The position numbers and the translations under genes were made by a program. DNA of 64,000 nt, taken from assembly GCF_006345805.1 (NCBI RefSeq), contig NC_043019.1, forward strand, positions 25,853,360 to 25,917,359, read 5' to 3'. The notes under the pieces were generated by a model. It made no database searches and was not told where the DNA came from. It saw only the letters and a list, made by a program, of their open reading frames with translations. Shown here in pieces: positions 37,433-54,184 of this stretch. This DNA is from Octopus sinensis. Taxonomy: Eukaryota. Position 1 is the first letter of the stretch. Each line of letters starts with the position of its first letter.

Positions 37433-37448
37433 CTTTGTACTGAAAATG

Positions 37449-37917
37449 AGAATTAAGAATATAGTGAAAAGAAAATAATAGGCGTAAAAAATGTTTTAGG
37501 TTAAAAATTAGAAAAAAATATTTCTACGGCCGTTTCAGGGGCTCAATCCTCTGAGTAAAATGTGAATCTTCAAATTCATTTTCAGAGAACGTCTCCTTCA
37601 TCAAGTAGAAAGTGATGTTTACGGTAGAAATGCATTCAGCGCGTTGCCAAGATTTATCTATGCAAATGGTGGAAGTCTATATGCATAGATATATCTTTTC
37701 TTCCATAAAAGATTCCAGTTACCTCATATCTTGGCAACGAGCTAAATGCATTTCTGCCCTATATATCACTTATTCCCTGATGAAGGAGACGTTCTCTGAT
37801 TCACATTTTCCTCAGAGGATTGAACCCCTGAAACGGCCGTAGGAATATTTTCTTCTAATTTTTAACCTAAAACATTTTTTACGCCTATCGTTTTCTTTTC
37901 ACTATATTTTTAATTCT
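37449..37917. repeat. About 470-bp fold-back palindrome built from two inverted hammerhead-containing units
   Basis: Arms about 37449-37653 and 37727-37917 are reverse complements apart from substitutions and one indel. Confidence 0.92.
37771..37847 (+). ncRNA. Type I hammerhead ribozyme (intact core)
   Basis: tattcc-CTGATGA-agg...(ctctga/tcagag)...cct-GAAA-cggccg-TA-ggaata. Stem I is a perfect 6 bp, stem III is the palindrome ACGGCCGT, and predicted cleavage is after A37841. Confidence 0.85.
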
Positions 37918-38252
37918 TCTTTTAAAAACATTTTTATCTATACTTCATTATATCATTACTATGTTCGTATATTCATATATTTATATACTCCTATATATAT
38001 TTTAATATTCATATTTTTATATTTTTACATGTATTCTTATACGTATTTTTAATATATCAATATATGTTTTTTGGAGAATTCTTTATCTTAAATTAAATCC
38101 GTATAAATACATGTTCGTCGTAGTTTGCCTGATTTGAACTTTCTCCATTCCATTTATTATATTTGTCTAACATCTCAGGTTCAACTTGAGCACTTCTGTG
38201 TCGTCTGTATCTTTCGTAAGAAAAATACAACTATAAATATATATATATATAT

Positions 38253-50684: not shown

Positions 50685-50909
50685 GAGCTGGCAGAACCGT
50701 TAGCACGCCAGGCGAGATGCTTAGCGGTATTTTGTCTGTCGCTGCGTTCTGAGTTCAAATTCCGCCGAGGTTGACTTTGCCTTTCATCCTTTCGGGGTCG
50801 ATAAATTAAGTACCAGTTACGCACTGGGGTCGATGTAATCGACTTAATCCGTTTGTTTGTCCTTGTTTGTCCCCTCTGTGTTTAGCCCCTTGTGGGTAGT
50901 AAAGAAATA
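50685..50909 (+). mobile_element. SINE type C with 11-bp TSD
   Basis: Near-identical to 42805-43037. TSD ggtatttgttc at 50674-50684 and 50910-50920. Confidence 0.88.
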
Positions 50910-51501: not shown

Positions 51502-51552
51502 TATGCATGTATGTAAGTATTTGTGTATGTATATATATATATATATAAATAC

Positions 51553-52411
51553 TTTCAACAATTGAGGGTAAAATTAATTAATTATTAATCAATTTCACCA
51601 AGTATCAGTATGTAAAGGGACCATTTAAGGCGAATTCAAATTATTACATTATATAAAAGGGCTTAGTAAATAAAATTACTTTGCCACATACTGAACTCAT
51701 TAGAAATAGCAGCTAAAAAAATTTTTTAACTATTCTAATACTTAAAGAAAATCTCTCTCATATAGTGTTTGCTCAAGTCAACTCACGAAGGTATGGGGGT
51801 AAAAACATTAAATAATCACAAATGCAAAGGTTATTTGAGAACGTACGTTTCTAGATTAGTCAAATCGACATTTCTTTCGTCAGCTCAGAACTCCTTGATT
51901 CGGATCTGGGAACACTGAAAGTGGGAGCATACCCTTTTGGCTTCTTATCACTTCCGGAGATCTGCTCGAACTACCAGTGCTAACAAATTCAAAATATGCA
52001 AGCGAAGAATTTCTGCTCCCTTTACACCAGCGTGGGTTAAAATTGGTAAAACACTATGTTTTATCGGTAAAAACCGAAGCATTAAATAGAGAGAAATGAA
52101 TTATAATTTCAACAATTGATGGGTAAAATTAATTAATTATTAATCAATTTCACCAAGTATTCAGTATGTAAAGGGACCATTAAGGCGAATTCAAATTATT
52201 ACATTATATAAAAGGGCTTAGTAAAATAAATTACTTTGCCACATAGACACTCATTAGAAATAGCAGCTAAAAAAATTTTTTAACTATTCTAATACTTAAA
52301 GAAAATCTCTCTCATATAGTGTTTGCTCAAGTCAACTCACGAAGGTATGGGGGGAAAAACATTAAAAAACACAAAATGCAAAGGTTATTTGAGAACGTAC
52401 GTTTCTAGATT

Positions 52412-52413
<2 letters not shown>
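51553..52413 (-). mobile_element. Hammerhead-bearing partial tandem (554-nt monomer, about 1.55 copies) inserted in (TA)n
   Basis: 51553-51859 is repeated at 52107-52413 (period 554). There is a complete hammerhead at 51836-51887 and a truncated one at 52390-52413. Confidence 0.85.
51836..51887 (-). ncRNA. Type I hammerhead ribozyme
   Basis: Minus strand reads tgag-CTGACGA-a aga aat gtc gattt gac taa tct a-GAAAC-gtac-GTT-ctca. Stem III is the palindrome ACGTACGT. Confidence 0.8.
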
Positions 52414-52460
<47 letters not shown>

Positions 52461-52505
52461 ATATATATATATCTATATATATATATATGTATATATATAG
52501 TATGG

Positions 52506-52552
<47 letters not shown>

Positions 52553-54184
52553 GATGGATGGATGGATAGATAAATATAGAGATATGTGTATGTATTTGTG
52601 TGTATGCTTCTATGTAAGTGTGTGTGTCTGTGCATGTGTGTGTGTCTGTGCCTGTGTGTGTGTACAGTACAGAAAGATGACCATCTACAGGTGGTTTGTC
52701 TCTATGTATAGATAAATTTTCAAGAAATTACTAGCTTTATAGAAAGCTATCGAGTAACCTTATACGTGCATAAGAATTCTAACCACCCTCAACTGTTATT
52801 AAGAATCTTGCAAATGATATAATTAAAGGAATGTACAAACTACCCACAGACAAGTACGTGACACAATTTCAAGAAATTAAGTATTGTTTTATCAATCCAT
52901 GTCATTTTCTCAATGGAGTTCATCCAAAATTGCTTGGACGAGCGCACATGATACGACATGGTCAATGGCAACAAAGTGATTCCACATGTGAATTTTAATA
53001 CGGATGAGTGCATGTGTATATTATGTGTGTTGTGTGTGTGTGTGTGTGTGTGTGTGTCTGTGTCTGTCTGTCTGTCTGTCTATGACGAGCTTCTTTCAGT
53101 TACTGTCTCCCAAACCCATTCACAAAGATTTGATAGGCCCAAGATTATAGTAGAAGACACTTTCCCAATGTTCCATACAGTGGGACTGAACCCGGAACTC
53201 TGTGGTTGAGAAGCAAACTTATTACCACACAGCCACGCCTGCGCCTGAGAGTCATTGCAGTTCATTATATGACACAAAGCAAGAATAAATGAAACAGCTT
53301 TTATATTTGAGCTAACCTATTTAACATGATTGCATCATCAATTTTATTTCATTTATTCTTGCTTTGTGTCAGCAGAATAGTAAATAACATAAGACATATT
53401 CATGTAAGTTAACCTGGAACTTTAGGTCTTAATTATAAGCCCAGCGATGACAACATTTTCGTTACGATATTATTACAACTATACAATTACGGTGACAAGC
53501 TAGCATGATCGTTAGCACGTCGGGTAAAATATTTAGCGGGACTTCCATCTTAACTTTCTGAGATCAAATTCCACCAAGGCCGATTATCTTTTCTTGATCG
53601 ATGAAATAAGTACCAGTTGAGTACTGGAGTCGATGTAATCAGCTTATCTTCACCCTCAAAATTGCTGGCCTTGAGCCAAATTTTGACATCATTAATACAA
53701 CTATAATTCCTGTTGTTGCGCGCAAAGAAAAGCTTCAAAGGCAATCATTTCATAGAGGGAATAGGAATGAAAATGTTGATGGACCTAGGAAAATTATTAT
53801 TGCTCCAAACTGAACATAAAAAAAGTAATAATGAAATGGAGGAGATGACTTAATTACAAAAAGCATATGAACAAGTTTGTGTTTTCGAAATAACATTAAA
53901 AGAAACAAGTGATAGTTATAAACGAGTGCCCGTGTGTGTGTGTGTGTGTGTGTAAATATGTTTCTCTCCTCTAATCGATAGTTGTACTAGCAACGAGAGA
54001 CACCACACAAACACCACACTGATGACAATTTACTGGTGAAAGGAAAATTAGAAAAACTGTTGGAGAATGGTTCATACGCATATTGGTAGGTTTCTACATA
54101 TATACACATACTTGTCTCTGTACACATGCGCATACAAGATACCATTGTATGTATAGGTTTATATACATATTCCTTTCTGATATA

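What the first reader, a model, noticed from the sequence alone, without database searches (positions are those of the whole stretch)
51553..52413. Second, unrelated hammerhead partial tandem with a 554-nt monomer in (TA)n
Seen: a 307-bp direct repeat with period 554 and no ORF. The minus-strand hammerhead is complete at 51836-51887, while the upstream copy is cut off inside stem II at 52413. Predicted cleavage sites 52394 and 51840 are exactly one monomer apart. Stem III is the palindrome ACGTACGT, which suits dimeric cleavage as described for minimal PLE hammerheads. Inference: a second retrozyme or tandem pLTR family that targets (TA)n.
Basis: partly seen in the sequence, partly recalled or inferred. 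Interest (0 to 1): 0.75.

Follow-up and report, generated by a model that had tools for sequence, protein, structure and literature searches.

The report
Penelope-mobilised hammerhead retrozyme in TA repeats
This is one copy of a protein-free jumping repeat, present thousands of times in this genome and sitting in TA microsatellites, that carries a predicted self-cutting RNA motif and is likely pasted in by a borrowed Penelope-type retrotransposon enzyme reading round a small RNA circle.

Summary
Observation confirmed: 307-bp direct repeat, period 554, minus-strand type I hammerhead at 51836-51887, second copy cut in stem II, predicted cut sites 554 nt apart, no coding ORF. It is not a local duplication: 7,964 genome matches to a 3'-end 31-mer, 4,373 to the hammerhead. 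Of 42 complete unbiased loci, 41 have (TA)n on both sides and 29 are head-to-head; 27 of those 29 end at two different fixed sites 92 nt apart, one per arm. That is the Penelope 'tail' footprint, also seen on ORF-bearing Penelope-like elements in this genome. The catalytic core is conserved across subfamilies 6-23% apart, and monomers fold as rods. A 24-unit array with near-identical units favours read-around of a circle, but cleavage, circles and the dimer are untested, and the GUU site and missing G10.1-C11.1 pair may weaken the ribozyme. Verdict: new member of the animal non-LTR retrozymes. The scan noted this architecture before on other DNA of this genome.

The parts
51553..52413 (-). Whole insertion: one arm of 1.55 units, 5'-truncated at 52413, 3' end at the family's 'long' site (junction blurred over 51549-51553)
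51840..52393 (-). Cut-to-cut monomer, 554 nt, 33% G+C, predicted rod-like fold
51836..51887 (-). Complete type I hammerhead motif; predicted cut between 51840 and 51839 (GUU); helix III palindrome at 51841-51848
51827..51896 (-). Hammerhead with predicted extension of helix I beyond an internal loop
   Evidence: read from sequence; 3 pairs in the consensus fold
52390..52413 (-). Truncated upstream hammerhead (3' strand of stem II onward); predicted cut site 52394/52393, not expected to be usable alone
51550..51741 (-). Conserved 3' module (about 200 nt) holding both reverse-transcription start sites; second copy at 52102-52295; shared with two more distant families
51645..51655 (-). 'Short' 3' end site of the family (internal, unused in this copy)
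51553..51644 (-). 92-nt tail between the short and long 3' ends
51530..51547 (.). (TA)n target remnant at the element's 3' end
52414..52528 (.). (TA)n target remnant at the element's 5' end

Best explanation
This is a 5'-truncated, 1.55-unit copy of a dispersed, ORF-less hammerhead repeat family that sits in (TA)n and ends at one of two fixed sites, and it is likely a non-autonomous retroelement (non-LTR retrozyme) whose RNA is predicted to self-cleave, would be ligated into a ~555-nt circle, and is likely copied into the genome by a Penelope-like RT/GIY-YIG protein supplied in trans. Steps: (1) tandem copies are transcribed (inferred); (2) the hammerheads cut, probably as dimers through the palindromic helix III, releasing a rod-shaped monomer whose ends lie together in helix I (predicted); (3) a host ligase closes it (by analogy with PMC7229834); (4) a Penelope-like protein binds the conserved 3' module, cuts (TA)n on both strands and primes each DNA end at one of two AU-rich loop sites 92 nt apart (sites shown by genomic ends, enzyme inferred); (5) each cDNA runs round the template for 0.1 to more than 20 turns; two cDNAs join head-to-head, or one is kept alone as here (architecture shown, order of events inferred). 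Class assignment about 0.9; the circular template about 0.6.
For: Copy number: 7,964 and 4,373 pattern matches, controls 0. Unbiased set (43 loci from the first 31 Mb of contig C1, 1 dropped for an N gap): 41 of 42 TA on both sides, 29 of 42 head-to-head, 27 of 29 with one long and one short end (binomial about 8e-7, by hand); other loci 41 of 44 (7 of 82 dropped as cut by an edge or N). ORF-bearing RT + GIY-YIG elements exist here (775-781 aa open frames) and show the same footprint: family A ends at two sites up to about 40 nt apart before (TA)n (16 short, 7 long among 23 distinct loci, counted by eye) and one family C insertion is head-to-head with one short and one long end. Selection on the ribozyme: 10 of 11 core positions invariant over 8 subfamily majorities against 333 of 554 columns overall, N7 takes C/U/A, and helix I shows a U-A to C-G double change in one subfamily. 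Circular folds of 6 of 6 subfamily units tested have z -4.4 to -7.1 (15 shuffles each); 16 of 136 consensus pairs have double changes. Arms reached q270 228 times and q300 211 times, so most run through the cut site; 85 of 188 arms exceed one unit. In a ~24-unit array with proper ends, 20 of 24 variable columns among 21 units are singletons and the rest are not in adjacent blocks. 26 of 171 locus-private substitutions are in all units of their locus; 7 of 87 cross both arms.
Against: No donor element found: no Penelope 3' UTR among 75 targeted loci, nor in all 333 loci, carries the family's 3' module, and the tail (92 nt) is over twice that of families A and C. The triplet is GUU in 107 of 119 units, pair 10.1-11.1 is never G-C, and one large subfamily has U4C, so cleavage may be weak; 8 of 9 predicted Xenopus retrozyme dimers did not cleave in vitro. 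In the one reconstituted Penelope system uncleaved RNA was the dominant template and priming needed no homology, whereas both sites here have TATA-like microhomology. 137 of 171 private substitutions are in single units, and within-locus distance (median 1.1%) is barely below the nearest other locus (1.3%). The structure was derived from the alignment it was scored on, and the sequences are related, so the covariation controls are optimistic. The window's own cut-to-cut monomer folds less well (z -2.8) and its two copies share no private substitution.
Confidence: 0.62

Rival explanations
1. Same non-autonomous, Penelope-mobilised element, but the template is an uncleaved linear read-through transcript of a genomic array; the hammerhead is weak or acts at another step, and long arrays grow later by recombination.
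For: Hammerhead mutants did not affect insertion by the Anolis element in vitro. GUU, A.A at 10.1-11.1 and U4C variants. Most arms are short (median 472 nt). Shared private variants are equally expected from a homogeneous source array.
Against: A 13.5-kb arm with star-like, block-free variation would need a 24-unit source transcript; the core is conserved with N7 free; the GUA subfamily has more hammerheads per locus than GUU ones (mean 3.9 in 24 loci against 1.9 in 53, medians 2 and 2, Mann-Whitney p 0.016; 6 rows of other families dropped from the 100 listed; confounded by subfamily age), the opposite of what read-through predicts if GUA cuts better.
Confidence: 0.25
2. The repeat is the pseudo-LTR or truncated end of an autonomous Penelope-like element whose ORF-bearing copies are rare and were missed.
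For: It has every Penelope insertion feature; only a few hundred of several thousand places were read; the GIY-YIG searches scored 150 of 5,029 and 150 of 8,452 candidates.
Against: The unit repeats directly head-to-tail with no intervening sequence; 0 of 117 complete loci run into an ORF; no protein similarity of the element to the Penelope ORFs found (best E 3.8).
Confidence: 0.08
3. A satellite grown by unequal crossing-over, or a local duplication or assembly artefact.
For: The two window copies differ mainly by small indels, as long-read errors do; two loci on different contigs share flanks.
Against: Thousands of dispersed copies on both strands, fixed 3' ends, variable 5' ends and different flanks at each locus.
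Confidence: 0.03

Closest known systems
Metazoan non-LTR retrozymes (Cervera and de la Pena 2020, PMC7229834; Li, Clavereau and Pollet 2026, bioRxiv 10.64898/2026.07.22.740005)
   Same: Tandem non-coding units with one type I hammerhead each, low G+C, self-paired fold, co-existence with Penelope-like elements.
   Different: Unit 530-567 nt (above the 170-400 nt of the 2020 paper, inside the 51-972 nt of the 2026 preprint); strict (TA)n targeting, head-to-head arms and two fixed 3' ends were not in the passages I read; no sequence link to a pLTR was found here; cleavage and circles are untested.
Penelope-like element insertions (Craig et al. 2021, PMC8557442; Frangieh et al. 2024, PMC11167929)
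   Same: Partial tandems, inverted 5'-truncated copy, tail at one end from two internal RT start sites, microsatellite bias, hammerhead.
   Different: No ORF; tail 92 nt rather than 30-40 nt; both start sites have TATA-like microhomology to the target; arrays reach more than 20 units.
Minimal and dimeric type I hammerheads of PLEs and amphibian satellites (Cervera and de la Pena 2014, PMC4209133)
   Same: Short palindromic helix III suited to a dimer.
   Different: No G10.1-C11.1 pair; GUU triplet in most subfamilies; interrupted helix II.

Membership tests
Metazoan non-LTR retrozyme | Type I hammerhead motif in each repeat unit | tested here: met
   Core present across 119 full units from 58 loci with few exceptions per position; 2,927 + 648 exact pattern matches, a few from other families
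Metazoan non-LTR retrozyme | Tandem arrays with at least two complete hammerhead units | tested here: met
   Met by the family (arrays up to about 24 units). This copy alone has one complete and one truncated hammerhead
Metazoan non-LTR retrozyme | No protein-coding capacity | tested here: met
Metazoan non-LTR retrozyme | Low G+C, unit of some hundred nt, self-paired fold | tested here: met
   33% G+C; 528-567 nt, within the 51-972 nt range of the 2026 preprint; z -4.4 to -7.1
Metazoan non-LTR retrozyme | No LTR, PBS or PPT | not tested
   No LTR-type framing seen in the locus maps; PBS and PPT not searched
Metazoan non-LTR retrozyme | Self-cleavage of the RNA | not testable with these tools
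   Needs a transcription assay
Metazoan non-LTR retrozyme | Expressed as linear and circular monomer RNA | tested here: inconclusive
   Only contigs of runs guessed to be RNA were available
Autonomous Penelope-like element | RT + GIY-YIG ORF in the unit | tested here: not met
   No ORF; no linkage in 333 loci
Penelope-type insertion footprint | Partial tandems and inverted 5'-truncated copies | tested here: met
   29 of 42 unbiased loci inverted
Penelope-type insertion footprint | Tail at one end only (two RT start sites) | tested here: met
   68 of 73 inverted loci have one long and one short end; tail 92 nt, not 30-40
Penelope-type insertion footprint | Microsatellite target bias | tested here: met
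   41 of 42 and 68 of 75 with TA on both sides
PLE minimal hammerhead | Palindromic positions 15.2-16.2 and loop 3 | tested here: met
   8-nt palindrome nearly invariant; 10-nt near-palindrome in the sister subfamily
PLE minimal hammerhead | Conserved G10.1-C11.1 pair | tested here: not met
   A.A, U.U, G.U or A-U
PLE minimal hammerhead | Cleavage depends on dimer formation | not testable with these tools
   Energy favours the duplex; no assay

The most novel reading that the evidence does not exclude
The family's insertions record rolling-circle, double-ended target-primed reverse transcription: a Penelope-like enzyme primes both ends of a cut in (TA)n at two loops of one self-cleaved, circularised, sometimes A-to-I edited RNA and reads round it up to more than 20 times, and array length tracks ribozyme strength (GUA longer than GUU). 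The subfamilies would then be a natural allelic series linking hammerhead activity to retrotransposition.
Probability: 0.35. Interest if true: 0.72.

Novelty: new member of a known kind. Interest (0 to 1): 0.5.

Why it matters
Which enzyme moves animal retrozymes, and from what template, is stated as open in both retrozyme papers, and how Penelope elements make tandem and inverted insertions is stated as open in PMC8557442. This family gives thousands of young insertions with mapped start sites, a conserved 200-nt module that is a candidate protein-binding site, natural ribozyme variants (GUU, GUA, U4C, two helix III lengths) and intact candidate enzymes in the same genome, so both questions can be tested in vitro. 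The class itself is known, and the scan has noted the same footprint on other families.

Tried and rejected
Rfam: no hit at gathering score. Donor search: GIY-YIG family search, 20 longer loci, a second endonuclease family, six other hammerheads with the same palindrome and a scan of all 333 loci gave no Penelope element carrying the family's 3' module; adjacent pairs (L090, L091, L191, L241, L250, L252) are separate insertions into the same TA tract. A loose end seen in two runs was followed as a possible ORF junction and proved to be a sister retrozyme subfamily (201 matches, about 77% identical). RNA: no RNA holder listed; contigs of four runs guessed to be RNA cover 18-22 of 30 bins, which shows neither strand, expression nor circularity. 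Pile-up of 5' ends at the cut site: 14 breaks in the 18 nt just 3' of it against 6.2 expected (p 0.005), but unrelated windows near q175 and q351 are as high, and only 1 of 188 arms starts exactly at the cut: weak at best. Target-site duplications cannot be read inside (TA)n. Literature: searches for octopus + hammerhead ribozyme, retrozyme + cephalopod, and Penelope-like + twin priming + inverted + microsatellite listed no description of this family; Repbase, Dfam and all supplements were not seen, so it may be catalogued there.

Full report
Observation. The repeat, its period, the minus-strand hammerhead, the truncation in stem II, the 554-nt spacing of the predicted cuts and the (TA)n flanks are all as described. 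Rfam finds nothing and the 52-nt motif alone does not fold better than shuffles, so the case rests on the family. The element has no similarity to the window's other hammerhead region.

A dispersed family. A DNA search gave 120 matches from 40 scored of 2,219 candidates, full-length ones 90-97% identical. Whole-genome pattern counts are 7,964 for a 3'-end 31-mer and 4,373 for a hammerhead 28-mer at up to two mismatches, with 0 control matches; these count units, not loci, and span subfamilies. 119 full units from 58 loci fall into 8 clusters 6-23% apart; three clusters are one locus each and one is two loci. A conserved module of about 200 nt at the 3' end is also found in a ~600-nt hammerhead repeat and in short ~260-nt head-to-head elements.

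Insertion anatomy. I fetched all 43 loci behind the first 100 listed exact matches (first 31 Mb of C1). One was dropped for an N gap. Of 42, 41 have TA runs on both sides, 12 are single arms like the window copy, 29 are head-to-head with 3' ends outward, 1 is complex. 3' ends fall at two sites: window 51553 (long) and about 51645 (short). In 27 of 29 inverted loci one arm ends long and the other short; in the other, non-random loci 41 of 44. Neither arm is regularly longer (35 of 68), and the arms meet with small overlaps or gaps. Both sites continue in the element with TATA-like letters, so the junction has microhomology with the target. In the consensus fold both lie in unpaired AU-rich loops. 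Craig et al. (PMC8557442, passages) describe partial tandems, inverted copies, a 30-40-bp tail at one end and microsatellite bias for Penelope-like elements; Frangieh et al. (PMC11167929, parts 1-2 of 4) show the tail lies between two internal RT start sites and that the enzyme cuts and extends both strands of AT-rich DNA.

Candidate enzymes. The genome holds many RT + GIY-YIG elements, several with 775-781-aa open frames (Pfam GIY-YIG above cut-off, RVT_1 just below it). Their CxxC linker suggests the Neptune clade (label by eye from the description; no tree built). Family A ends at two sites up to about 40 nt apart in (TA)n, and one family C insertion is head-to-head with one short and one long end. 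So the same footprint is made by autonomous elements here. None shares the retrozyme's 3' module: the donor is inferred by footprint, not identified.

The ribozyme. C3, G5, A6, G8, A9, G12, A13, A14, A15.1 and U16.1 are invariant across the 8 cluster majorities, against 60% of all columns (0.6^10 about 0.006, by hand, ignoring relatedness); N7 varies freely; U4C occurs in one cluster, together with a U-A to C-G change in helix I. H17 is U in 107 and A in 12 of 119 units. GUU is listed among active NUH sites in a review (PMC3138052, passages); that it cuts more slowly than GUC or GUA is recalled, not from a call. Helix III is unstable as a hairpin (+2.4) and stable as an 8-bp duplex (-9.8 kcal/mol), matching the dimer model of PMC4209133 (passages). 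Other hammerheads met in passing have different palindromes at the same place. Against strong activity: no G10.1-C11.1 pair, and 8 of 9 Xenopus dimers were inactive in the 2026 preprint (parts 1-3 of 5).

Template. Arms usually run through the cut site (228 passages at q270, 211 at q300), 85 of 188 arms exceed one unit and 27 exceed two, so the template mostly has an intact junction: a ligated circle or an uncleaved multimer. For the circle: rod-like folds with ends joined in helix I, a ~24-unit arm with proper ends and star-like variation, and more hammerheads per locus in the GUA subfamily (confounded). For a linear share: a mild excess of breaks just 3' of the cut and one arm that starts at the cut after a short stutter. 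Variants shared by all units of a locus (26 of 171) fit either. PMC7229834 (passages) shows circles for coral, mussel and axolotl retrozymes and names Penelope elements as strong candidates for mobilisation. RNA data here were uninformative.

This copy. It likely arose from priming at the long site, a pass through the cut junction, and a stop 1.55 units later, 19 nt beyond the second cut site; a second arm was not made or not kept. With one complete hammerhead and a dimer-type helix III it would probably not release a monomer by itself.

Novelty. A new member of a known class. Six literature searches listed no account of this family; supplements and repeat databases were not seen. Earlier notes of this scan describe the same two-armed, two-site footprint on other DNA of this genome, some of it possibly related families; none matched this sequence or place. 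I had reached the reading before the first look-up; the editing test and the single-event test on a long array came after reading them. Those notes call the genome an octopus; I did not test that. Interest 0.5.

Noticed in passing
window 37443-37923: The window's other hammerhead element: an inverted pair (78% identical arms) with a type I motif near 37777 on the + strand and a different helix III palindrome; no similarity to the 554-nt family.
   Followed up: partly
window 13907-19092: About 4.5 kb of (GGGTTA)n preceded by 450 bp of (TAGGGT)n, telomere-type repeats inside a long contig.
   Followed up: no
window 11932-12575: 295-bp unit repeated 2.2 times, each unit ending in (ATA)n, 96% identical; no hammerhead core found by my pattern.
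   Followed up: partly
window 50686-50846 and 53498-53646: Two diverged copies (72-88%) of a SINE-like repeat flank the element at a distance; label by eye.
   Followed up: no
L161-L190 (e.g. L166:740-1030): Older family of ~260-bp head-to-head insertions in (TA)n made only of the conserved 3' module, one arm with a ~95-nt tail; no linked hammerhead seen in these loci; 2,474 first-look candidates. They look like MITEs but likely arise by the Penelope route.
   Followed up: partly
L257:2900-5001: A ~600-nt tandem hammerhead repeat sharing the 3' module at about 68% identity, with compensatory changes in the 11-bp helix, directly beside a copy of the 554-nt family.
   Followed up: partly
L085, L089, L092 and other family A loci: Young Penelope-like family with 781-aa RT-GIY-YIG frames, an overlapping upstream frame of up to 479 aa, and a hammerhead-like motif that appears to have U3 and A8 in place of C3 and G8 (by eye).
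   Followed up: partly
L090:4157-4175: One arm starts exactly at the predicted cut site, preceded by a short repeat of the first 9 nt, as if the RT stuttered at the 5' end of a cleaved RNA.
   Followed up: yes
L010 (C10) and L012 (C5): Same insertion with the same flanks on two large contigs, but a core variant is spread differently over the units: segmental duplication with conversion, or assembly redundancy. One of the pair was dropped from most counts.
   Followed up: partly
cluster 5 (e.g. L217, L218, L222): Large subfamily with a 17-nt deletion, U4C in the core and a compensatory change in helix I, still forming long arrays.
   Followed up: partly
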